A stretch of 37,764 nt of DNA from Anaerolineae bacterium (lineage in GTDB: Bacteria > Chloroflexota > Anaerolineae > J102): the NCBI GenBank assembly GCA_011371305.1, contig DRQW01000165.1, positions 1 to 37,764 of the forward strand, read 5' to 3'. Made by a program: the position numbers and the translations under genes. The notes beneath the pieces were generated by a model. That model saw only the letters and a program-made list of their open reading frames with translations, ran no database searches and was not told where the DNA came from. Shown here one piece after another: positions 254-27,806 of the stretch. Positions within the stretch are counted from its first letter, which is position 1, and the number at the start of each line of letters is the position of its first letter.

Positions 254-1942
254 TTATGATTTCACCCGGATGCCACCCTCCTCATAAGTGAAAATCCATC
301 CTGTCAGATCGCCCGGCACGATGTGATCTTTCACGTTTCCGGTGGCTGGGTCCACAAAAACACGGTAGAATCGCGAGGAGTATAAACCGCCATCGGCCTG
401 CAGTTGCGCCTCGGTGACCTCGCGAATTCGTCGGATGCGTTCCTGCCAATGGGCCATATTCGCGGGTGTGAGGTCCACCCAGCCATCCTCCGCGTTGTCC
501 GCTTTGATCTCCGGCCCGCGCAGCAGTTTCTCGCCATCCGGCGTGAGGATGGGGATGCCGATGGAGATGATGTGGGAGCGGAGTCGGGCGTCGGAAGCAA
601 TACGTTCGAACGCGGCCTGAGCCAAATCTTCAGGAGACATAGCCAGGGCCCGGGTCATGCTGTCGCCCGTGATCAGCTTCAGAAGGTAGGCTTCGTACAA
701 GAGCTTGGAAAGCCGGGGCGGTCCTAAAATCTCAAAAGCAATGCTCTCCACATCGTGCTCCTGTTCCAGATGCCGCATGCGGGCTAACGCGCCTTCTCGT
801 AGCACGCCTGCGCGGTACGTGGGCCCCAACACCGATTGATCCAGCGCACTGATGATGTCGAAGCCTGTGTTCCCGCCCTGAATTTCCATGATGATATAGT
901 GTGCGATCTCTTCGGGCGTTACAAATTCCATCTGGTTGAGGGAAGTAATGGTGGAAAATTCCTGCAAGGCAAAGAGCCCGTTTTCGCCGGTATCGACATA
1001 AACATTTTTCAGTACTTCGCCCGTGGGTTGCCCAAAAACACCGTTGTCGGCCAGGGCTTCTTCCAGCGGCACAGCATCGTCGGGCGGGCAGTCGTAGAGC
1101 TCGATGGCACGGCCTCTGCGCTTGATGGGGCCATAGCCGATCTCTGCCCAGCCAATGGCCGCGGTGGGCTTGATCTCTTTGATGACCTTACGGGTGGGTG
1201 GCGTGCGGGCCAGTAGGAACATGAGCATGCTATGGCCACCCGCCAGCGCGGATTTGGAAAGCAGCATGGCCGAGGGTTTCTCTTCGCCGTGGGTATAGGG
1301 GATGTTCAATCCCATGCCGCCCGTGCCGCTGGTGCCCACCTTAATGTAAACGCGTACGCCGTTCCAATGCGCGCTCTCGAACTTCATGACTTCATTCAAA
1401 ATCTGGATATGGCGCACCAGGTGGGGAATGTAGGTGCGTAGCACGTGCTTTTCGGCCATCTCCAAATGTTTCGCCGGGTCAGGGTCCTGCATCGTCTCCA
1501 GCAATTCATAGCTGCTGGCGTAGATGTTCTGGTAAGCGAACGCGGTGGCCGTGTTGATGCAATCGATGATGCCGTCGGGTTCATATTGGCGCACGAAGCG
1601 GGCCAGGGTGTTGTTTTCCAGGATGGCTTGTTTACGTTCTCCAACCATGGGGTCCAACAGATCCGCCAGTAGGCGTTTGCGAATTTCCCCATCCGCCAAC
1701 ATCTCCTCCCACCGCATATCCTTATATTCCCAGGGCACAAAGATATTTCCCCAACAGGCGTGCACGCGGGTGCCTTCGGGCGCTTCTCGGGCCAGCATAG
1801 CCGCGGTCTCTTCTGCGCTGACCTGATCAATCGAAGCAATGATGAGATGGGCCGGACGATATCGTAAAAGCTGACGGGAAATCGCCTTACCGACCTGTCC
1901 GGCCCCTCCGAGGATTAGAAAATTTCTCCCTTGTATCTCCAT
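254..1942 (-). CDS. Uncharacterised NAD(P)-binding Rossmann-fold (SDR/KR-like) protein, 562 aa
   Basis: N-terminal ILGGAGQVG dinucleotide-binding motif; GGAGG SD upstream on the - strand; long ORF. Substrate not recognisable. Confidence 0.8.
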   Translation of the reverse strand: MEIQGRNFLILGGAGQVGKAISRQLLRYRPAHLIIASIDQVSAEETAAMLAREAPEGTRVHACWGNIFVPWEYKDMRWEEMLADGEIRKRLLADLLDPMVGERKQAILENNTLARFVRQYEPDGIIDCINTATAFAYQNIYASSYELLETMQDPDPAKHLEMAEKHVLRTYIPHLVRHIQILNEVMKFESAHWNGVRVYIKVGTSGTGGMGLNIPYTHGEEKPSAMLLSKSALAGGHSMLMFLLARTPPTRKVIKEIKPTAAIGWAEIGYGPIKRRGRAIELYDCPPDDAVPLEEALADNGVFGQPTGEVLKNVYVDTGENGLFALQEFSTITSLNQMEFVTPEEIAHYIIMEIQGGNTGFDIISALDQSVLGPTYRAGVLREGALARMRHLEQEHDVESIAFEILGPPRLSKLLYEAYLLKLITGDSMTRALAMSPEDLAQAAFERIASDARLRSHIISIGIPILTPDGEKLLRGPEIKADNAEDGWVDLTPANMAHWQERIRRIREVTEAQLQADGGLYSSRFYRVFVDPATGNVKDHIVPGDLTGWIFTYEEGGIRVKS

Positions 1943-2295
1943 GTGTCAGTCCTCCATTGGACGAGTTAGGTGGGTGGGGATACGTGTGGACATATGATAT
2001 CATGAGCGATGGAACCAGGGCTATTTTTCGCCTTTCCTGTCCCATGCTTTCGTAGCATAGTTCAAAAGAAATCAGGCGCCACGCGCTTTGGGGCGGTTTT
2101 ACAGGAGTGATGACCGAGCTGTTGCTCCTTTTCACCAATTCCCTTTTCGAGAACATTCAATACCCTGCTACTTTCCCTCTTGTTTGCCTGGTTGTTGGAT
2201 TCTTCAGTGGGAAAACTGGCGATTTTTCTTTTTCTCTGCTTAAACGTTCAGCAGAAGGGTTACGACGGTGATTTTTGTGGCACGGGGGTAAGCCC

Positions 2296-2324
2296 TTGAC
2301 AAGGTACGTGGCATGGCTTACATT
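2296..2324 (+). promoter_or_regulatory. Sigma70-type promoter for the ABC exporter operon
   Basis: TTGACA (2296-2301), 17 bp, TACATT (2319-2324). Confidence 0.7.
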
Positions 2325-2368
2325 GTGAACAACGACATCATTTGCGTTTCCCCAGAAGGAGTTTATCC

Positions 2369-3241
2369 ATGCCCGTCATCGAAACCCGGCAACTCACCAA
2401 ATACTACGGCAAGGCCCGAGGCATCGTTGACGTCTCCTTGCAGGTGGAGGAGGGGGAGATCTTCGGTTTCATCGGGCCTAACGGCGCGGGCAAAACTACC
2501 ACCATCCGTTTGCTGCTGGGACTCATCTTTCCTACCCGGGGCGAGGCTCGCATCTTCGGCAAGGACGCGATCAAGGACGGGCCTGAAATCCGGCGCCACA
2601 TCGGCTATCTTCCCTCGGAGGTCTTCTACTACGAGGGCATGAAGGTCATCGACCTGCTCAAATACGCGGCTAGCTTCTACCCGGGCGACCACACCAAGCG
2701 CCTGCACGAGCTGGCCGAGTACATGGAACTGGACCTGCACCGCAAGATCGAAGACCTTTCGTATGGGAACCGGAAGAAGGTAGGGATTGTGCAAGGGCTG
2801 CTCCATCGCCCCAAGCTGGTGTTCCTGGACGAACCCACCCTGGGCCTGGATCCACTGATGCAGCGCAAATTCTTTGACCTGATCCGCGAGGAGAACGCTC
2901 GCGGGGTCACGGTCTTCTTCTCCTCCCACATCTTGGGCGAGGTGCAGCGGTTGTGCCAGCGGGTGGGCATCATCAAAGAAGGGCAGCTCATCGAGGTGTC
3001 GGACATCCGCACCCTGCAACAGAACAACTACAAGCGTATCTATGTCGCGGCCCGCGAGATACCGTCCGGCTATTTCGATCGTCCTGGCGTGACCAATCTG
3101 GAGGCGGTCAATGGCGGCGTGCGTTTCTTCTACAAAGGGGATATCGACGCCATCGTCGCCCGCATCAGCGCCCTGGACCTCATCGACGTCACTATCGAAG
3201 AGCCCACCCTGGAAGAAATTTTCATGCACTACTACGAATAG
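2369..3241 (+). CDS. ABC-2 type exporter ATP-binding subunit
   Basis: Walker A GPNGAGKTT, signature-like LSYGN, Walker B VFLDEPT, H-loop SSH. AAGGAG SD precedes ATG 2369, which is preferred over the TTG at 2342. Confidence 0.95.
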   Translation: MPVIETRQLTKYYGKARGIVDVSLQVEEGEIFGFIGPNGAGKTTTIRLLLGLIFPTRGEARIFGKDAIKDGPEIRRHIGYLPSEVFYYEGMKVIDLLKYAASFYPGDHTKRLHELAEYMELDLHRKIEDLSYGNRKKVGIVQGLLHRPKLVFLDEPTLGLDPLMQRKFFDLIREENARGVTVFFSSHILGEVQRLCQRVGIIKEGQLIEVSDIRTLQQNNYKRIYVAAREIPSGYFDRPGVTNLEAVNGGVRFFYKGDIDAIVARISALDLIDVTIEEPTLEEIFMHYYE

Positions 3242-12667: not shown

Positions 12668-12808
12668 CAATTGCAGATATCTTCGCCCCGTTGTGGGCGA
12701 CCGGGGGAAGTCCGGTGAAAATCCGGCGCTGTCCCGCAACTGTGAGAGCTTCGGCTCAAGCCAGATCGCCCGGCACAGGCGCAGCTTTCTGCGAGGCACA
12801 GAGGCTGC
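12668..12808 (+). ncRNA. Cobalamin riboswitch (short form)
   Basis: GGGAAGTCCGGTGAAAATCCGGCGCTGTCCCGCAACTGTGA core and AGCCAGA B12-box half, directly upstream of cob genes. Boundaries approximate. Confidence 0.92.
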
Positions 12809-12830
12809 GAACGTTTCCTTTGCCCGACAT

Positions 12831-22485: not shown

Positions 22486-22665
22486 GGGGAAGTCAGTGAG
22501 TTTGCGCCTAAGGCTGCACCTTCGGGCTTTGGATTATCAAGCCTCTTCGGATCTATTTCAATAGCTTATTGTATCACATCCTGGCGACGGTTTTTATTCC
22601 AAATTTTTTCCCAAATATCCCAAATTTTATCCCAAATCATGGAACGGGTGCTTGGTCCGGTTGAG

Positions 22666-23002
22666 GCCTGCTTTGAAAATAGATTTCGGTAGACCGGGAA
22701 ACCGGGTAGACCAGTAGACCGGGTGGAGGAGCGAATCGGCCCGGTTTCCCTGGTTTCCGGGTTTCCTGGTTTACCGGTTACGGGGCTGCACAGCCCGCCA
22801 TTTTCATCCGTATCGGCGCAGGCGAGCCTGCCATCGGACTGCTATGAAAACAGGATTCGGATCAGGATTAGGATTGAAGTCGTCAGGATAACGTTGAGCG
22901 AGGCGCCAACGGGCGTGAAACGTGATGCGTGAAACGTGAGGACTTACGCATCACGCATGACGCATTACGGCGTCGGCTTCCTCCGCCACCTTGGCCGCAA
23001 GG
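22666..23002 (+). repeat. Mosaic repeat copy A (~335 bp): octamer palindrome, small hairpin, module M, AGGATT hexamers, heptamer palindrome
   Basis: Colinear and highly similar to the reverse complement of 37381-37708; the 5' part also matches 1-144. Confidence 0.92.
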
Positions 23003-23095
23003 TGGGCAGGTGGCAGGTCAAATGGCGCAATCCACCTGCCACCTGCCACTTGCAAACTTGCAAACCTGACTTGGCACCTTGACGCCTTGGCGTGC
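22994..23095. repeat. GCAGGTG/CACCTGC/CACTTGC heptamer palindrome followed by a nonamer arm
   Basis: Same architecture as 4228-4346. The nonamer arm 23070-23094 is the near reverse complement of 153-179. Confidence 0.8.
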
Positions 23096-23123
23096 GATTT
23101 CGGTACGTATCGTCGCGAGGGGA

Positions 23124-24761
23124 TTACACCTTGCGGAAGGTGACTGTGCGCCCGCGCAAGCGGGTGGAAGGCACCCGCTGCAAGATGCGGTCCACGTACT
23201 CTTCCTGTACCTCGATATAGGTGAATCGATCGCGGATATCGATGTTGCCCACCGCGCGACCGGGCACATTGGCCTCGTTGGCGATGGCCCCCACGATATC
23301 CTTGGGCCGCACGCCGATGTCATATCCGGCATCCATCACCAGCCGCACATACCCCTCCTCGACCTCGCGATCTTCGTAGATGCGCTCACGGGGCTGCGGG
23401 CGGGGTGAACTGGGCCGGTAGCCACCGGGCGTATAACGGCGCTGGTCATACTGCTGAGGCCGCTGCCGCTCGAAGACGCGCTCCGTTTCCTGAGGCTTTT
23501 GGCTGAGGATAACCGCGGCCGCGGCGATCTCGGACCAATCGATGCCTTCTCGGGCCAGATCGTTGAGCAGAAGCATGTACGGCTCCAGATGCTCGCGATG
23601 CACGATGGCCTTGATGCGTTTCTTGTAGGATTCCGCCTTCTGGGCGACGATGCTGGCCCGGGTGGGGGAAAGCACCGCGCGGATGCGCTGGCCCAAATGG
23701 GTTTCGATCTCATTGAGCAGGGCCCGATGTCGCCCCAAAACCAGGCTGAAATGCACGCCGTTCTCTTCCACAAGCCGAGAACGAGCCACATAGGTCTGGA
23801 TATCGGGGGCCACATCATAGCTGATAACGTAGGGGGATTCCAGCATCAGTTCTTCCCCGGCCGCGTCGGTGAGCACCAGGAAGGAGAGAACACCCTCTTG
23901 CCAGCGCCTCACCGCGGCCTCACGTTCATCCGGCCCCATGCCCATGTGGATGGCGGCGCTGTTGTAGCCGCGCGTGTTCAAGTCGAAAGCGATATTCTCG
24001 ACCCGCGGGCGCAGGCTGGCGAAAATCAGCGCGCGAGAAATGTTCTCACCATCGAGGAGGCGGATCAACGCATCCTCTTTATCGCCCGATGGAATGGCCT
24101 GATAGCGGTGGTTGATCAAGGGCACGGTAATGGCCACCGGCTCCCGCTGGACCATGACCGGCTCGAAGAGATGCTCATCCGCGAAATCCTGAAGGGTCTC
24201 TTCCACCTTGGCCGCGAAGAGGGTCGTTTGCCGGCCCGCGGGCATCATGTCGAAAAGTTCTTCGATAACCGCCTGCTGACGGCGGGAGAGCAGGTAATCG
24301 ATATCCTCGATAACCACGTATTGGATGTGTTCCAGGCTGAGGGCTTCGCGATTGACATGCTCGCGAATGCGCGGAGGGGTGCCGATGATGATGGCCGCGG
24401 TCTCGTCCAGTTGCTCCGCTTCGCGCGCGAGGGAACGTCCCGCGTAAAGCGAGACCACCCGCAGTTCCTTGTGGGGATTGAGCTTCTGGAACAAGGCCCC
24501 TGCCCGAATCGCATTGTCGCTACCCCCAACCAATACCAGCACTTGCGCTCCTGATGTTTCCACATCCAGGGTCTGCAAAATGGGGAGAGCATAGGCGGTG
24601 GTACGCCCACTGCCCGAAGGCGCTTCGGCCAGGATATCACGTCCGGCGAGAATGTGGGGGATGATCTCGGTCTGGAGGGCAGTCGGTTTTTCCAGACCCA
24701 TCGCTTCCAACCCCGCGATCAACTCTGGGGTTAAACCTAAATCCATGAATGTTTGAGTCAT
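23124..24761 (-). CDS. DeaD/CsdA-like DEAD-box protein with degenerate catalytic motifs and a C-terminal DbpA RNA-binding domain
   Basis: Q motif (F..LGL...PTALQ), GTPPRI, two RecA-like domains and VRPKDIVGAIANEA...VGNIDIRDRFTYIEV; motifs II, III, V and VI altered. Confidence 0.88.
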   Translation of the reverse strand: MTQTFMDLGLTPELIAGLEAMGLEKPTALQTEIIPHILAGRDILAEAPSGSGRTTAYALPILQTLDVETSGAQVLVLVGGSDNAIRAGALFQKLNPHKELRVVSLYAGRSLAREAEQLDETAAIIIGTPPRIREHVNREALSLEHIQYVVIEDIDYLLSRRQQAVIEELFDMMPAGRQTTLFAAKVEETLQDFADEHLFEPVMVQREPVAITVPLINHRYQAIPSGDKEDALIRLLDGENISRALIFASLRPRVENIAFDLNTRGYNSAAIHMGMGPDEREAAVRRWQEGVLSFLVLTDAAGEELMLESPYVISYDVAPDIQTYVARSRLVEENGVHFSLVLGRHRALLNEIETHLGQRIRAVLSPTRASIVAQKAESYKKRIKAIVHREHLEPYMLLLNDLAREGIDWSEIAAAAVILSQKPQETERVFERQRPQQYDQRRYTPGGYRPSSPRPQPRERIYEDREVEEGYVRLVMDAGYDIGVRPKDIVGAIANEANVPGRAVGNIDIRDRFTYIEVQEEYVDRILQRVPSTRLRGRTVTFRKV

Positions 24762-24861
24762 GTTGTTACCTCACAATGTTCACAGGTGTCACAGATGGGG
24801 AGAGGGGCGAGAGAATGGATGGCTTCCCAAGGGTCATGGGTTACCCCACGCCAACATGTGA

Positions 24862-24890
24862 ACTATAACACAATTCATCAGGGAATGCAA
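24862..24890 (-). promoter_or_regulatory. Sigma70-type promoter for the DEAD-box-like gene
   Basis: On the - strand TTGCAT, 17 bp, TATAGT, with an extended TG. Confidence 0.65.
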
Positions 24891-24940: not shown

Positions 24941-24971
24941 ATAAAAACGATCTCTCTTTTGAGAGATCGTT
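24941..24971 (-). terminator. Intrinsic terminator downstream of the FmdB-family gene
   Basis: AACGATCTCTC-TTTT-GAGAGATCGTT 11-bp stem; T-tract follows on the - strand. Confidence 0.85.
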
Positions 24972-25000: not shown

Positions 25001-25300
25001 TCAATCCGTGCTTGCTTTCGTGGCCTCAGCCGTGGAACTGGATGAGGTTTCCTTCTTGGATCCCGAATCGTTGCCATTGGAGGATGCCCGTTTTGCCGGT
25101 GCGCCCGCGGCATTTTTCCCACGCGAATCGGTCACGTAGAAGCCAGAGCCCTTGAAAACAATGGCAGGCGCGGAGAAACGCCGGGTCACATGCGCGCTGT
25201 CATGGCAAACAGGGCATGGAGGCGTGCCCGTATCGGAAAAAGAGCGCCTTACTTCAAAATCGACGTGACACTGATTGCAGTGGAACTCATACAAGGGCAT
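25001..25300 (-). CDS. FmdB-family zinc-ribbon protein
   Basis: MPLYEFHCNQC...CPVC...FKGSGFYVTD followed by a low-complexity tail. Confidence 0.92.
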   Translation of the reverse strand: MPLYEFHCNQCHVDFEVRRSFSDTGTPPCPVCHDSAHVTRRFSAPAIVFKGSGFYVTDSRGKNAAGAPAKRASSNGNDSGSKKETSSSSTAEATKASTD

Positions 25301-25445
25301 GATGATCTCTCCCAATGGTGCTTGGATTCAGGACTTCTAATCATAAGCCAGAAGGCATGGTTTCGTCAACCCGAAGGCACCTGCGGGCCGATGACTTCTT
25401 AGATGCACCTTAATGGGAAAAAGTTAGATACAGGTATGAAAAACA

Positions 25446-27806
25446 TTAGCGTTGGGTTAGAGCCATGTCGGGCGGATAGGGTTGCTGGCGGAGCTCAACA
25501 CGCTGACCATCGGTGATGATCTCCACCATGGCGTCGTTGGGAATGCGGACCAGGCCCGGATAGGTCTCGAACCGCCGCTGCACACCGGGTGGGTAGGTGG
25601 TCCCTTGGGGCTGGAGGATGGTTTGCGGTTGGAGCGCCACCAGCAGGTCGGGATGAGGCCACGCGCCAGTGCCGGGCCAGGGCGTCACCAGCAGGGTGAC
25701 CGGGGTCAGAAGGCCGCGGGCCAGCCAGCGGGCCTGGGTGGCCTGGCTGTTGGTCAGGGGCAGCAGCGTGGTGAATTGGCCAAAACGCAGGCGGTAGAGG
25801 CGGGGTTCGGCCGGAGGCGCGTCCAAAAGCACCAGCGACACATCCTTTTCCAAACGGATGACCGTGCCCGGTCCGAGGGGAGTTTCGGGCGTGAACACGG
25901 CCCGCGCCCTCACTTCAGGCATCTCGGCGCGGTTTTCCAGGATGAGCAGATCGACAGAGCCACCGCCTGGCAGGGTTCGTAGGATCGCAGCCAGCGGCGC
26001 TTCCCCGACCGCGTCATCCACCAACAGGACACGTCTTCCCGATGGTGTGGTCAGGTGCCAGACGGCTCTCTCACCCAGCCCCAGCAGGCGCACATGCAAT
26101 CGCCCATCGGGCCGGGCGGCCCAGGCAGTCGCCCCCACCCACAGGAAACCCAGGATCACGCCCGCGGCCATGGCCGCACGCACCAGGGCCGGACGGTACC
26201 GAGGCGGTATCAACGCCCGCGCGCCCTGCTCCTGCCGAAACAGCCACCACAAAAACCCGACCAGGAACAGGATGTAATACCACGCGGCCAGCAAGCGCCC
26301 GAACGCACCCACCTCCACCGACCCCCAGGGGATCGCGGCCATCCGTTCCACCACGAACACCGTCCACCACAGGCTGGCCCAGGGGATGAGCGCGATGAGT
26401 TGGCCCAGGGGAAAGAACACCGCGGCCAGAGGAATAGCCAGCCCGCCCGCGATGAGAATGGGAGGCTGGACTGGGATGATGAGCAGGTTGGCCAGGAACG
26501 AGATGATGGATAGTCGTCCGAAATAATGCACCACCAGGGGCATGGTCGTGATCTGTGCGGCCAAGGTAATGAGCAGCCCTTCGGCCAGCAGGTTGTTGGC
26601 CAGACGGGGCAGACGTTGGCCCGCCCAGCGGTCCCATCGGGCCTGCAGGGGCTGGCTGAACAGGATCAACCCCAACGTAGCCATGAAGCTGAGCTGAAAG
26701 CCCACATCCCACAGCGTCAGAGGGTTGATGAGCAGCATGGCCAGCCCCGCGATGAACAGGGAAATGATGGCCGCGCTCTGGCGGTTCAACGCCGTGGCGA
26801 TGACATACAGCCCACCCATGATCCCCGCCCGCATCACCGCGGCATCCGCGCCCACCAGCAGCACATACAGCCCGATACCTGCCAGGGTGAAGATAGCCGC
26901 GAGGGGCTTGCGCCCACGGGCGATGGCGGAAAACAGCAGAAGCAGGATGGCCGAGACCAACGCAATGTTTGAGCCACTGATGACGATGACGTGGGAGGTT
27001 CCCGTCAGGTTGAATTGTTCATAGAGATCGCGGGGGATGCCGCTTTCGATGCCCAGGATCATGCCGTTGGCCAGGGCCGCGTAGGGTTGGGGCATGAGCT
27101 GATCCAGCAGGGCGCTGGCCCGGGCCCGCACGGCATACAGGGCCGCCAGCAGGGGGTTGCCCTGATCCCTGGCCAGCAAATGCAGTTCTGCCCGCCGCAC
27201 GAGGGTATGAACCCCCCTGCGGGCCAGATAGCGGCGATAGTCGAAGCCTGGAAAGGTCGGTGGCGCCATGGGAACACCCCGCACCTTCACCCGGTCGCCG
27301 TACTGAAACCCCACTTGGTCGGTGCGCACCAACGCCCGGCCCGAGACTGGCAGCTTCTCCTCCCCATCCCAGATGGCATCCATCCGCACCACATACTGCG
27401 CGCCGCTCTCCCGCACCACGGGATAGCTGACGATGACGCCCTCCATGACCCGCGGGCGGCCGTAGGGGTCGGCCGCGTGGTGATGCACCAGGGCATCGGG
27501 CGGGAAACAGGGCTCGAACGGGTGGGAGAGATAACGCCACGCGCCCAGCAGGAGGAAGAGGACAACCACCGTAGGAATCAGCACCCGACGGCGGTGGCGT
27601 CCCCACCACAGCATGGGCGCCAGAACCAGGACCGGGAGCAGCAGCCAGCGGGGATCGGGCGACAGCCGCTCGCCCGCACAGCCGAACCCGCCCCGGGCCA
27701 CCCACTCATACCCTGCGACCACCCCTGCAGCCAGCCCCAGCGCCGCATACACAGGCAAGTAGGGCGTGGGCGGACGATAGGTTTGCCTGAAAGAAGACAT
27801 CGACAT
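25446..27806 (-). CDS. comEC: ComEC/Rec2 DNA-uptake channel with a degenerate metallo-beta-lactamase domain
   Basis: OB-like region FDYRRYLARRG, GTSHVIVISGSNI, AVMRAGIMG, NPLTLWDVGFQLSF and ANLLIIP; GGAGGTG SD. Confidence 0.92.
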   Translation of the reverse strand: MSMSSFRQTYRPPTPYLPVYAALGLAAGVVAGYEWVARGGFGCAGERLSPDPRWLLLPVLVLAPMLWWGRHRRRVLIPTVVVLFLLLGAWRYLSHPFEPCFPPDALVHHHAADPYGRPRVMEGVIVSYPVVRESGAQYVVRMDAIWDGEEKLPVSGRALVRTDQVGFQYGDRVKVRGVPMAPPTFPGFDYRRYLARRGVHTLVRRAELHLLARDQGNPLLAALYAVRARASALLDQLMPQPYAALANGMILGIESGIPRDLYEQFNLTGTSHVIVISGSNIALVSAILLLLFSAIARGRKPLAAIFTLAGIGLYVLLVGADAAVMRAGIMGGLYVIATALNRQSAAIISLFIAGLAMLLINPLTLWDVGFQLSFMATLGLILFSQPLQARWDRWAGQRLPRLANNLLAEGLLITLAAQITTMPLVVHYFGRLSIISFLANLLIIPVQPPILIAGGLAIPLAAVFFPLGQLIALIPWASLWWTVFVVERMAAIPWGSVEVGAFGRLLAAWYYILFLVGFLWWLFRQEQGARALIPPRYRPALVRAAMAAGVILGFLWVGATAWAARPDGRLHVRLLGLGERAVWHLTTPSGRRVLLVDDAVGEAPLAAILRTLPGGGSVDLLILENRAEMPEVRARAVFTPETPLGPGTVIRLEKDVSLVLLDAPPAEPRLYRLRFGQFTTLLPLTNSQATQARWLARGLLTPVTLLVTPWPGTGAWPHPDLLVALQPQTILQPQGTTYPPGVQRRFETYPGLVRIPNDAMVEIITDGQRVELRQQPYPPDMALTQR

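What the first reader, a model, noticed from the sequence alone, without database searches (positions are those of the whole stretch)
23124..24761. Full-length but apparently catalytically dead DEAD-box pseudo-helicase
Seen versus established consensus: Walker A is GSGRT (normally GxGKT), motif II is EDID (DEAD), motif III is FAA (SAT), motif V is TDAAGEEL (TDVAARGLD) and motif VI is YVARSRLV (HRIGRTGR). The ORF is nevertheless uninterrupted, has a promoter and SD, and keeps a well-conserved DbpA RNA-binding domain. Inference: an ATPase-inactive RNA clamp, scaffold or regulatory partner of an active DeaD, rather than a decaying pseudogene.
Basis: partly seen in the sequence, partly recalled or inferred. 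Interest (0 to 1): 0.7.

Follow-up and report, generated by a model that had tools for sequence, protein, structure and literature searches.

The report
Conserved catalytically dead DeaD-type RNA helicase
This gene encodes a full-length relative of the bacterial RNA helicase DeaD that has lost its ATP-burning residues yet is kept intact, with its own conserved leader, across a whole order of Chloroflexota, so it probably works as an RNA-binding protein without helicase chemistry.

Summary
Window 23124-24761 (-) is an intact 545-aa ORF with DeaD/CshA architecture: two RecA domains, a DeaD dimerisation domain, a disordered linker and a DbpA-type RBD. Motifs I, Ia, II, III, V and VI are degenerate.

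It is not a decaying pseudogene. Orthologues sit in all 28 of 28 genomes of the window's order (9 genera) and in none of the other families of the class that were sampled. Within-genus dN/dS has a median of 0.064. The motif II Glu is absent in 0 of 60 family clusters, against 60 of 60 canonical relatives.

Constraint is inverted relative to canonical DeaD. The RBD is nearly invariant (84% identity between genera), while the RecA domains have drifted to about 49%.

A canonical DeaD paralogue was found in only 13 of 28 genomes, so the gene cannot be an obligate partner of DeaD.

New here: the gene carries a private, conserved extended -10 promoter and a leader of about 95 nt. The leader occurs once per genome, always upstream of this gene, and matches no Rfam family.

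Best reading: an ATPase-dead, RBD-driven RNA-binding protein, probably acting on ribosomal RNA and possibly autoregulated. In six literature searches I found no bacterial DEAD-box pseudohelicase described. Biochemistry is untested.

The parts
23124..24761 (-). Coding sequence of the dead DeaD-type protein (545 aa plus TAA stop)
   Evidence: ORF list and translation. Orthologues in 28 of 28 genomes of the order with open frames and an ATG at the aligned position.
24147..24761 (-). RecA-like domain 1 (aa 1-205). Q motif intact. Motif I GSGRT, motif Ia lost, motif Ib GTPPR, motif II EDID, motif III AAK.
   Evidence: Pfam DEAD 5.1e-29. Motif tables. AF2 pLDDT above 90.
23682..24146 (-). RecA-like domain 2 (aa 206-360). 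Motif V TDAAGEEL. Motif VI replaced by the family-specific Y-x-x-R-x-x-L-V-x-E-N-G with a 3-residue deletion.
   Evidence: Pfam Helicase_C 2e-11. Alignments. AF2 pLDDT about 85-97.
23487..23681 (-). DeaD/CshA-type dimerisation domain (aa 361-425, three helices)
   Evidence: Pfam DeaD_dimer 4.4e-08. Genome hit at 23490-23666. AF2 helices with pLDDT about 58-65. 17 family-specific invariant positions.
23376..23486 (-). Disordered R/Q/P/Y-rich linker (aa 426-462)
   Evidence: AF2 pLDDT below 50 over residues 419-464. Lowest conservation of any domain: 29% identity between genera, omega 0.18.
23127..23375 (-). DbpA/DeaD-type RNA-binding domain (aa 463-545), almost invariant across the family
   Evidence: Pfam DbpA 6.9e-21. 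Best solved relative is the E. coli DeaD RBD, 5b88, E 6.5e-07. 95% identity within the genus, 84% between genera, omega 0.031. 40 gained, 12 kept and 0 lost invariant positions.
24776..24853 (-). Core of a conserved 5' leader private to this gene: GGCGUGGGGU...ACCCUUGGGAAGCC hairpin region, CUCUCGCC box and CUGUGAAC box (the last at 24785-24778)
   Evidence: Alignments. Covariance model R1 hits once per genome in 27 of 28 genomes, always directly upstream of the orthologue. 0 true hits in 146 other genomes of the class. No Rfam match. The structure is only tentative.
24862..24870 (-). Extended -10 promoter box TGTTATAGT, with a weak -35-like TTGCAT at 24890-24885
   Evidence: Read. TGnTATAnT is conserved in the aligned orthologous loci. 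It falls below the threshold of the consensus scan. The transcription start has not been mapped.
24769..24773 (-). Shine-Dalgarno TGAGG, 7 nt upstream of the ATG
   Evidence: Sequence. GAGG is invariant in the 12 genus-level loci and near-invariant across the order.
24946..24971 (-). Intrinsic-terminator-like hairpin ending the upstream Zn-ribbon gene; it marks the dead-helicase gene as its own transcription unit
   Evidence: Terminator scan: 11-bp stem followed by TTTTAT. The upstream gene is a Zn_ribbon_8 protein.

Best explanation
The gene encodes a pseudo-helicase derived from a DeaD/CshA-type DEAD-box protein. The two-RecA core still folds but can no longer hydrolyse ATP. It has also lost most of the residues that clamp RNA in the closed state. 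Selection now acts mainly on the C-terminal DeaD-type RBD and on the dimerisation domain.

The most likely mode of action is ATP-hydrolysis-independent binding of a highly conserved structured RNA through the RBD, probably as a homodimer. The target is most plausibly ribosomal RNA or a pre-ribosomal particle, by analogy with DbpA, DeaD and Utp25. The dead core would serve as a structural or docking module.

The core may still bind an adenine nucleotide. The Q motif, the P-loop glycines, a basic residue at the Walker Lys position and an acidic residue at motif II position 1 are kept throughout the family.

The gene is a stand-alone unit with its own conserved promoter and a private 5' leader. 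That leader is a candidate site for post-transcriptional control, possibly autoregulatory.

Shown: gene integrity, family-wide motif loss, purifying selection, lineage distribution, independence from canonical DeaD, and leader conservation and uniqueness.

Inferred: loss of ATPase activity, the RNA target, dimerisation, nucleotide binding and autoregulation.
For: 1. Fold and architecture. Four Pfam domains. Confident AF2 model, pLDDT 82.3 overall and above 90 for the RecA domains. Foldseek top hits are CshA, DbpA and Hera.

2. Family-wide catalytic loss against 60 canonical relatives.
- Motif II Glu 0 of 60, motif III Ser 0 of 60, motif Ia Arg 0 of 59, motif V Arg 3 of 61.
- Motif VI is shortened by 3 residues and its last Arg is Leu.
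- Walker Lys is K in 28 clusters and R in 31. K to R is also seen outside the window's genus, in G203 and G205. The Walker Thr is Ala in G021 and G204.

3. Selection.
- Present in 28 of 28 genomes, with the frame open in every copy. Two copies are cut by contig ends. One has a linker frameshift, with the RBD intact in the next frame.
- NG86 omega has a median of 0.064 (range 0.029-0.124) over 55 of 55 pairs within the genus, including pairs with dS below 1: for example dN 0.037, dS 0.755.
- Every domain has omega of 0.18 or less.
- The replaced motifs are themselves conserved within the genus: EDID in 11 of 12, GTPPR in 12 of 12.

4. Inverted constraint. Between genera the RBD is 84% identical against 71% for canonical DeaD. 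RecA1 and RecA2 are 49% and 48% against 73% and 80%. Gained, kept and lost invariant positions: RBD 40, 12, 0; dimerisation domain 17, 5, 1; RecA1 15, 24, 29; RecA2 15, 12, 17.

5. Burst of change, then constraint. The clade is monophyletic (SH-aLRT 100) on a stem of 1.76 substitutions per site, with short internal branches.

6. Independence from DeaD. It is the only gene with a DbpA or DeaD_dimer domain in 15 of 28 genomes, 9 of them at least 90% complete. Within the genus it is better conserved than the canonical paralogue in 18 of 21 matched genome pairs.

7. Private leader. It is conserved in all 27 loci that have upstream sequence. It occurs once per genome in 27 of 28 genomes and gives 0 true hits in 146 other genomes of the class.
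Against: - No biochemical data exist. ATPase loss is inferred from motif identity alone.
- Motif II carries Asp at the Glu position in 33 of 60 clusters, and the Q motif and P-loop are retained. Residual or unconventional nucleotide turnover therefore cannot be excluded.
- The RNA target is unknown. Nothing here ties the protein to ribosomes except its homology to DeaD, DbpA and CshA.
- Gene neighbourhood gives no functional hint. Synteny with the window is shared only by the closest relative, and the one recurrent neighbour is polA, in 19 of 28 loci.
- Leader structure is weakly supported. The RNAalifold energy is -3.0 kcal/mol. The compensatory changes trace mostly to one split. The window's own leader is no more stable than shuffles, z = +1.21.
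- The phylogenetic origin is unresolved. The AU test rejects a sister relationship with the family's own canonical DeaD (p = 0.0014). However, the group was defined after seeing the tree and a very long branch is involved.
- 15 of the 28 genomes are below 90% complete or above 5% contaminated. Not finding a canonical DeaD in those genomes is weak evidence.
Confidence: 0.7

Rival explanations
1. Regulatory or targeting subunit that heterodimerises with an active DeaD through the shared dimerisation domain.
For: The dimerisation domain is retained and carries 17 family-specific invariant positions. A canonical paralogue with the same architecture co-occurs in 13 of 28 genomes.
Against: In 15 of 28 genomes no second gene with a DeaD_dimer or DbpA domain was found. 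These include all 7 genomes of genus g4, of which G200, G218, G219, G220 and G174 are 98-100% complete, and G143 and G212 of the window's own genus at 97-98%. Motif state does not track presence of the canonical copy. The only other DEAD-box protein in the window's genome (C177, 472 aa) has no Pfam dimerisation domain.
Confidence: 0.1
2. ATP-bound, non-hydrolysing RNA clamp that holds RNA through the helicase core, like eIF4AIII locked in the exon-junction complex.
For: The Q motif (F5 57 of 57, Q30 59 of 59) and the P-loop glycines (59 of 59) are invariant. The Walker position is always K or R. Motif II position 1 is always D or E. Motif Ib Arg is kept in 60 of 60 and motif V Thr in 61 of 61.
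Against: Residues needed for the closed RNA-bound state are gone: motif Ia Arg 0 of 59, the first Gly of the GG doublet 10 of 59, motif V Arg 3 of 61, and the motif VI arginines deleted or replaced. The core is the least conserved folded part, at about 49% identity between genera.
Confidence: 0.1
3. Still an active RNA-dependent ATPase or helicase with an unconventional active site.
For: An acidic residue (Asp) sits at the Glu position of motif II in 33 of 60 clusters. One Arg of motif VI (R327) is at least 90% conserved. Purifying selection is strong over the core as well, with omega 0.045-0.095.
Against: Motifs II, III, V and VI are lost together in every member. The Walker Lys and Thr positions drift repeatedly (K/R and T/S/A), whereas 60 of 60 canonical relatives keep both.
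Confidence: 0.08
4. Decaying pseudogene or relaxed duplicate on its way to loss.
For: Many catalytic motifs are degenerate.
Against: It is retained in 28 of 28 genomes across 9 genera with open frames. Omega has a median of 0.064. The promoter, leader and SD are conserved. Within the genus it is more conserved than the canonical paralogue in 18 of 21 pairs.
Confidence: 0.01

Closest known systems
CshA (Geobacillus, PDB 5ivl) and E. coli DeaD/CsdA: dimeric DEAD-box helicases with a C-terminal dimerisation domain and, in DeaD, a DbpA-type RBD
   Same: Same domain order. CshA is the best solved match (E 1.2e-59, about 30% identity). The RBD is closest to the E. coli DeaD RBD, 5b88. DeaD_dimer and DbpA Pfam domains are present.
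   Different: All catalytic motifs are degenerate. It scores far below the NCBIfam equivalog cut-offs: CshA 243 against 646 bits, DeaD 239 against 989 bits. Domain conservation is inverted. It forms a separate clade on a stem of 1.76 substitutions per site.
DbpA / YxiN (PDB 7pli, 7pmq, 2g0c, 3moj): 23S rRNA hairpin-92-specific DEAD-box helicases
   Same: Same RBD fold family (Pfam PF03880; E 1.7e-04 to 3.7e-03 against the solved RBDs). RBD-directed targeting of a helicase core is the known logic of this group; that statement is recalled knowledge.
   Different: DbpA is monomeric, lacks the dimerisation domain and is an active ATPase. Whether the RBD here recognises hairpin 92 is untested.
Utp25/Def: eukaryotic SSU-processome DEAD-box pseudohelicase
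   Same: A DEAD-box fold with dispensable or degenerate motifs that is nevertheless essential, acting in ribosome assembly (PMC9539457, abstract and figure legend read). It is the conceptual precedent for a selected, inactive DEAD-box protein.
   Different: Utp25 is eukaryotic, has N-terminal accessory sequences and lacks the DbpA RBD and DeaD dimerisation domain. Direct homology beyond the shared superfamily was not tested here. The present family arose independently within bacterial DeaD-like proteins.
eIF4AIII in the exon-junction complex (PDB 2hyi, 2j0s)
   Same: A DEAD-box protein used as a static RNA-binding platform rather than as an unwinder. It appears among the structural hits.
   Different: eIF4AIII has intact motifs and is locked by partner proteins. 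Here the RNA-clamping and ATP-closing residues themselves are lost.

Membership tests
DEAD-box proteins (SF2; Pfam DEAD plus Helicase_C) | Two RecA-like domains with the DEAD-box fold | tested here: met
   Pfam 5.1e-29 and 2e-11. AF2 pLDDT above 90 in both domains. Foldseek E about 1e-33 to CshA and DbpA.
DEAD-box proteins (SF2; Pfam DEAD plus Helicase_C) | Q motif (upstream aromatic residue plus GxxxPTxIQ) | tested here: met
   F5, G22, P26 and Q30 are invariant in the family.
DEAD-box proteins (SF2; Pfam DEAD plus Helicase_C) | Motif I Walker A, GxGKT | tested here: not met
   The window has GSGRT. In the family, 31 clusters have R and 28 have K. The Thr is Ala in 4 and Ser in 2 of 59. Canonical relatives keep K and T in 60 of 60.
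DEAD-box proteins (SF2; Pfam DEAD plus Helicase_C) | Motif II, D-E-A-D | tested here: not met
   The window has EDID. Glu is present in 0 of 60 family clusters and 60 of 60 canonical relatives.
DEAD-box proteins (SF2; Pfam DEAD plus Helicase_C) | Motif III, SAT | tested here: not met
   The window has AAK. Ser is present in 0 of 60 and Thr in 1 of 60.
DEAD-box proteins (SF2; Pfam DEAD plus Helicase_C) | Motif V (TDVAARGxD) and motif VI (HRxGRxGR) arginines | tested here: not met
   Motif V Arg is kept in 3 of 61. Motif VI has a 3-residue deletion and its terminal Arg is Leu.
DEAD-box proteins (SF2; Pfam DEAD plus Helicase_C) | RNA-stimulated ATPase activity | not testable with these tools
   Requires purified protein.
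DeaD/CsdA-CshA subfamily | C-terminal dimerisation domain followed, in DeaD, by a DbpA-type RBD | tested here: met
   PF25399 4.4e-08 and PF03880 6.9e-21.
DeaD/CsdA-CshA subfamily | Scores above the NCBIfam equivalog cut-off | tested here: not met
   CshA 243.4 against 646 bits. DeaD PRK11634 238.6 against 989. DbpA 233.8 against 524.
DeaD/CsdA-CshA subfamily | Dimer formation through the dimerisation domain | not testable with these tools
   Complex prediction was full and then unavailable, so no test was run.
Pseudoenzyme / pseudohelicase (functional class, e.g. Utp25) | Enzyme fold retained with catalytic residues lost across the whole family | tested here: met
Pseudoenzyme / pseudohelicase (functional class, e.g. 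Utp25) | Maintained by purifying selection | tested here: met
   Omega median 0.064 over 55 pairs. Retained in 28 of 28 genomes.
Pseudoenzyme / pseudohelicase (functional class, e.g. Utp25) | Experimentally shown lack of activity together with a retained biological role | not testable with these tools
   No cultured or assayed member was identified here.

The most novel reading that the evidence does not exclude
This would be the first bacterial DEAD-box pseudohelicase. An order of Chloroflexota has converted a DeaD-type helicase into an ATP-hydrolysis-independent RNA or ribosome-assembly factor. Its hyper-conserved RBD also binds the gene's own private 5' leader to autoregulate its synthesis. 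In about half of the lineages this factor has outlived, and functionally replaced, the canonical DeaD.
Probability: 0.25. Interest if true: 0.75.

Novelty: new variant of a known kind. Interest (0 to 1): 0.62.

Why it matters
DEAD-box proteins are the textbook ATP-driven RNA remodellers of bacteria. Every member of this family that carries a source name in the search output is labelled a DEAD/DEAH box helicase or 'ATP-dependent RNA helicase DeaD'.

This family shows that the DeaD scaffold (RBD, dimerisation domain and a folded but dead core) can be kept under strong selection without the chemistry. It can even persist where the active paralogue is not found.

That gives a natural separation-of-function system for a long-debated question: which roles of DeaD- and CshA-type proteins need ATP hydrolysis, and which need only RNA binding or scaffolding.

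It also supplies an undescribed conserved 5' leader to test for autoregulation. And it warns that these entries are probably mis-annotated as enzymes.

Tried and rejected
- Expression data: no RNA holder was listed for the gene, so no reads were laid.
- Dimer prediction: complex prediction was full twice and then declared unavailable. No job ran, and dimerisation is untested.
- Earlier findings of this scan: nothing found by sequence.
- Operon logic: the window's neighbours (Zn-ribbon protein, ComEC, NAD-epimerase) are shared only with the closest relative, G143. The only recurrent neighbour is polA, downstream in 19 of 28 loci, and it is absent from the window. No functional inference was drawn.
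- Known RNA families in the leader: no match at gathering threshold. Only chance-level lncRNA and CRISPR-repeat hits with E of 0.68 or more at permissive threshold.
- A regulon defined by the leader motif: rejected, since there is exactly one copy per genome. The single hit outside the family (G110, 27.5 bits) lies inside a coding sequence.
- More distant dead relatives or intermediate forms: the profile search of 1.84 billion representatives returned only one full-length family representative (931 bits) and one fragment (573 bits) before dropping to 414 bits or less. Of the other 148 listed hits, 143 have all four canonical motif patterns. The 5 that do not are long multi-stretch or partial proteins unrelated to this clade. 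They were not pursued.
- Apparent decay of the canonical paralogue in G067 and G206: on inspection the G206 copy is simply cut by a contig end. The G067 copy has intact motifs with one frameshift in the low-complexity linker. This is not evidence of decay.
- Simple family-level duplication as the origin: the constrained tree is rejected (AU p = 0.0014). I do not trust this against long-branch effects, so the origin is left open.
- (MAFFT --auto) timed out and was rerun with faster settings.
- One search failed on a wrong reference and was rerun without it.
Full report
**1. Observation**

Window 23124-24761 on the minus strand is one uninterrupted ORF of 545 aa, ATG to TAA.

Pfam finds DEAD (5.1e-29), Helicase_C (2e-11), DeaD_dimer (4.4e-08) and the DbpA RNA-binding domain (6.9e-21). 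All NCBIfam equivalog models are matched far below their cut-offs: CshA 243 against 646 bits, DeaD 239 against 989, DbpA 234 against 524. The best solved relative is CshA, 5ivl, at E 1.2e-59.

Aligned to CshA and to 60 canonical DeaD-like proteins, the motifs read as follows:
- Q motif: intact.
- Motif I: GSGRT.
- Motif Ia: GGSDNA, for PTRELA.
- Motif Ib: GTPPR.
- Motif II: EDID.
- Motif III: AAK, for SAT.
- Motif V: TDAAGEEL.
- Motif VI: YVARSRLVEENG, with a 3-residue deletion relative to YVHRIGRTGRAG.

The motif names and roles are textbook knowledge that I recall. The canonical residues are shown by the 60 canonical rows.

**2. A conserved family, not a one-off**

The word-indexed search returned two tiers of orthologues: 27 clusters at 77-93% identity and 33 clusters at 51-57%. 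Identity then drops sharply to 35% or less, where all rows have canonical motifs. Where a source names these proteins, it calls them DEAD/DEAH box helicase or ATP-dependent RNA helicase DeaD, from Caldilineales, Caldilineae or Chloroflexi metagenome bins.

In whole genomes, orthologue-grade matches (E of 1e-139 or better) occur in 28 of 28 genomes of the window's order. In this collection the order is a single family with 9 genera. No such match occurs in any of the other families sampled in a 201-genome draw from the class, where only canonical DeaD at 33% identity or less appears.

A profile search of 1.84 billion 50%-identity representatives found one full-length representative (931 bits) and one fragment (573 bits). 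The scores then fall to the canonical background at 414 bits or less. The family is thus discrete and confined to one lineage.

**3. The motif loss is ancestral and still progressing**

Across the family clusters:
- Motif II Glu: present in 0 of 60 (Asp 33, Gly 15, Ser 10, Ala 2).
- Motif III Ser: 0 of 60.
- Motif Ia Arg: 0 of 59.
- Motif V Arg: 3 of 61.
- Motif VI: a family-specific, conserved Y-[AV]-x-R-x-x-L-V-x-E-N-G.

The 60 canonical relatives are invariant at all of these positions.

The Walker Lys is K in 28 clusters and R in 31. In the 28 genome-derived orthologues:
- R is fixed in the window's genus and also appears in G203 and G205.
- The Walker Thr is Ala in G021 and G204.
- Genus g4 is the least degenerate (GSGKT, GTPGR, D..D).
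- The window's genus is the most degenerate (GSGRT, GTPPR, EDID).

By contrast, several positions are kept in every member: the Q-motif Phe and Gln, the P-loop glycines, a basic residue at the Walker position, an acidic residue at motif II position 1, the motif Ib Arg and the motif V Thr.

I infer that hydrolysis and the ATP-closed, RNA-clamped state were lost at the base of the clade. Adenine-nucleotide binding to RecA1 may persist.

**4. Selection**

All 28 orthologues have open frames with an ATG at the aligned start. Two are cut by contig ends. The G202 copy has a frameshift in the low-complexity linker, with the RBD intact in the next frame.

Nei-Gojobori dN/dS for the 11 full-length copies of the window's genus has a median of 0.064 (range 0.029-0.124) over 55 of 55 pairs. 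This includes unsaturated pairs such as the window against G143: dN 0.037, dS 0.755, omega 0.049.

By domain, omega is 0.045 (RecA1), 0.095 (RecA2), 0.047 (dimerisation domain), 0.178 (linker) and 0.031 (RBD).

In matched genome pairs within the genus, the dead copy is more conserved than the canonical DeaD paralogue in 18 of 21 pairs. Between genera it is less conserved, at about 0.5 against 0.7 identity.

The pattern of constraint is inverted:
- Between genera the RBD is 84% identical, against 71% for the canonical RBD.
- RecA1 and RecA2 are 49% and 48%, against 73% and 80% for the canonical copies.

Counting positions that are at least 90% conserved in both tiers gives these gained, kept and lost counts relative to canonical DeaD:

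| Domain | Gained | Kept | Lost |
|---|---|---|---|
| RBD | 40 | 12 | 0 |
| Dimerisation domain | 17 | 5 | 1 |
| RecA1 | 15 | 24 | 29 |
| RecA2 | 15 | 12 | 17 |

About a dozen of the gained RBD positions are Arg or Lys.

**5. Structure**

AlphaFold2, with a 32-sequence family alignment, gives mean pLDDT 82.3:
- Both RecA domains score above 90.
- The three dimerisation helices score about 58-65.
- Residues 419-464 form a disordered linker.
- The RBD is an RRM-like fold at about 76-86.

Foldseek's best matches are CshA, DbpA and Hera. The isolated RBD is closest to the E. coli DeaD RBD, 5b88 (E 6.5e-07), then to DbpA and YxiN.

**6. Relation to canonical helicases**

The window's genome is 72% complete, in 213 contigs. 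It contains one fully canonical DEAD-box gene on contig C177: 472 aa, all motifs intact, with no DeaD_dimer or DbpA domain. It has no second gene with a DbpA domain.

Across the order:
- A canonical, full-length DeaD with the same architecture is found in 13 of 28 genomes.
- In the other 15 genomes the dead gene is the only carrier of either domain.
- Nine of those 15 are at least 90% complete. They include G200, G218, G219, G220 and G174 of genus g4, and G143 and G212 of the window's own genus.

Two apparent cases of canonical-copy decay turned out to be a contig end (G206) and a single linker frameshift (G067).

The dead protein therefore cannot be an obligate partner of DeaD. Where it dimerises, in those 15 genomes it must be a homodimer.

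**7. Phylogeny**

The tree had 53 rows:
- 16 of the 28 dead orthologues
- 8 of the 10 canonical copies from the order
- 22 canonical copies from the class
- 6 other DeaD-like proteins
- the C177 protein as outgroup

The remaining rows were left out for speed.

The dead clade is monophyletic (SH-aLRT 100). It sits on a stem of 1.76 substitutions per site and has short internal branches. It branches outside the whole class's canonical DeaD clade (supports 84 and 93).

Forcing it to join the order's own canonical DeaD costs 37.6 log-likelihood units (AU p = 0.0014). However, that group was named after the tree was seen, and the long stem invites attraction artefacts. I leave the origin open between an old duplication, a transfer, and a recent duplication with a burst of change.

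**8. The gene has its own conserved expression signals**

Upstream, a Zn-ribbon gene ends with a terminator-like hairpin at 24971-24946.

The consensus promoter scan found nothing between that hairpin and the ATG. Alignment of orthologous upstream regions, however, shows several conserved elements:
- An extended -10 box, TGnTATAnT. In the window this is TGTTATAGT at 24870-24862.
- A leader of about 95 nt containing an invariant GG.G.GGG ... C..GGG.A.C hairpin region.
- A second box: GUGACCGG in most genera, CUCUCGCC in the window's genus.
- A (C)UGUGAA box.
- A GAGG Shine-Dalgarno.

This holds in all 27 loci with enough upstream sequence, even though the flanking genes differ.

A covariance model of the core (R1: 67 positions, 9 pairs) gave these results:
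- It hits exactly once per genome in 27 of 28 genomes, always directly upstream of the dead gene. In the 28th genome the contig ends 37 nt upstream of the ATG. The window hit is 24776-24853.
- It never hits upstream of the canonical DeaD.
- In a 151-genome draw from the class it finds 5 of 5 members of the order. Among the 146 others it finds one 27.5-bit match, which lies inside a coding sequence.

Rfam has no match.

Structural support is modest:
- RNAalifold energy is -3.0 kcal/mol.
- 94.9% of cells pair, against 53% or less for slid controls. However, the three pairs with changes on both sides mostly reflect the single split between the window's genus and the rest.
- The window's leader is no more stable than shuffled sequence, z = +1.21.

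I therefore describe it as a sequence-conserved, gene-private leader. It is a candidate site for post-transcriptional or autoregulatory control, and neither role has been demonstrated.

**9. What it most likely is and does**

Shown:
- The gene is a folded, order-wide, strongly selected DeaD-derived protein.
- It lacks the catalytic and RNA-clamping residues.
- Its RBD is hyper-conserved.
- It does not depend on a canonical DeaD.
- It has private expression signals.

Inferred:
- It binds a conserved structured RNA through the RBD without ATP hydrolysis.
- It probably acts as a homodimer.
- The dead core serves as a structural or docking module that may still bind nucleotide.

Ribosomal RNA or pre-ribosomes are the most plausible target, by analogy with three proteins:
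- DbpA/YxiN, whose targeting to 23S hairpin 92 is recalled and is also mentioned in PMC3093544 (passages seen).
- DeaD/CsdA.
- The eukaryotic pseudohelicase Utp25 (PMC9539457; abstract and figure legend read).

I put 0.7 on the core statement (dead, selected, RBD-driven, independent of DeaD). I put about 0.4-0.45 on a ribosome-related target and about 0.3 on autoregulation through the leader.

**10. Novelty**

Six full-text searches found DEAD-box pseudohelicases only in eukaryotes:
- Utp25, for which the abstract was read.
- A C. elegans preprint, seen in the search listing only.

They found no bacterial case and nothing on Chloroflexota DEAD-box proteins of this kind. The 2011 survey of bacterial DEAD-box proteins has no occurrence of 'inactive', 'degenerate' or 'pseudogene' (term search only).

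Absence from these searches is not proof of absence from the literature, because subscription journals are largely not held.

I rate this a new variant of a known kind: a DeaD/CshA-architecture protein turned pseudoenzyme, with an undescribed private leader.

Noticed in passing
window 22486-23123: A 640-bp non-coding gap downstream of the gene, made of a chain of different short direct repeats. Units include caagtttg, ggcaggtg, atgcgtNa, cacgtttcacgc, aatcctN, ggaaaccNgg, ggtctacNNg and atttggga, each repeated 2-4 times. An inverted repeat (about 23047-23004) lies about 80 nt downstream of the stop codon. In 19 of 28 relatives polA sits directly downstream instead.
   Followed up: partly
window 12688-12812 (+): AdoCbl (cobalamin) riboswitch, Rfam RF01482, 59.6 bits against a gathering score of 50.
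   Followed up: no
window 25001-25315 (-) and 25446-27806 (-): Upstream neighbours are a Zn_ribbon_8 (FmdB-like) small protein and a ComEC/Rec2 competence channel protein. This arrangement is shared only with the closest relative, G143.
   Followed up: partly
G202:C26:1090165-1091807 (L058) and G067:C34 (L084): Both the dead copy (G202) and a canonical DeaD (G067) carry a single frameshift inside the low-complexity linker between the dimerisation domain and the RBD, leaving the RBD in a different frame. These could be sequencing errors in repetitive linkers or real split genes.
   Followed up: partly
G000:C177:1459-4950 (L001), ORF 1402-2820 (+): The window's genome has a canonical 472-aa DEAD-box helicase (all motifs intact, basic C-terminal tail, no DbpA or dimerisation domain) next to a carboxyl-transferase-like gene. 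Orthologues appear in relatives G143 and G108.
   Followed up: partly
P0123, P0130, P0181, P0187, P0255 (one search hits): Five DeaD-like database proteins, 666-1859 aa, lack one or more canonical motifs by pattern matching. Several have multiple matched stretches, so they may be fusions, gene-model concatenations or other degenerate helicases.
   Followed up: no
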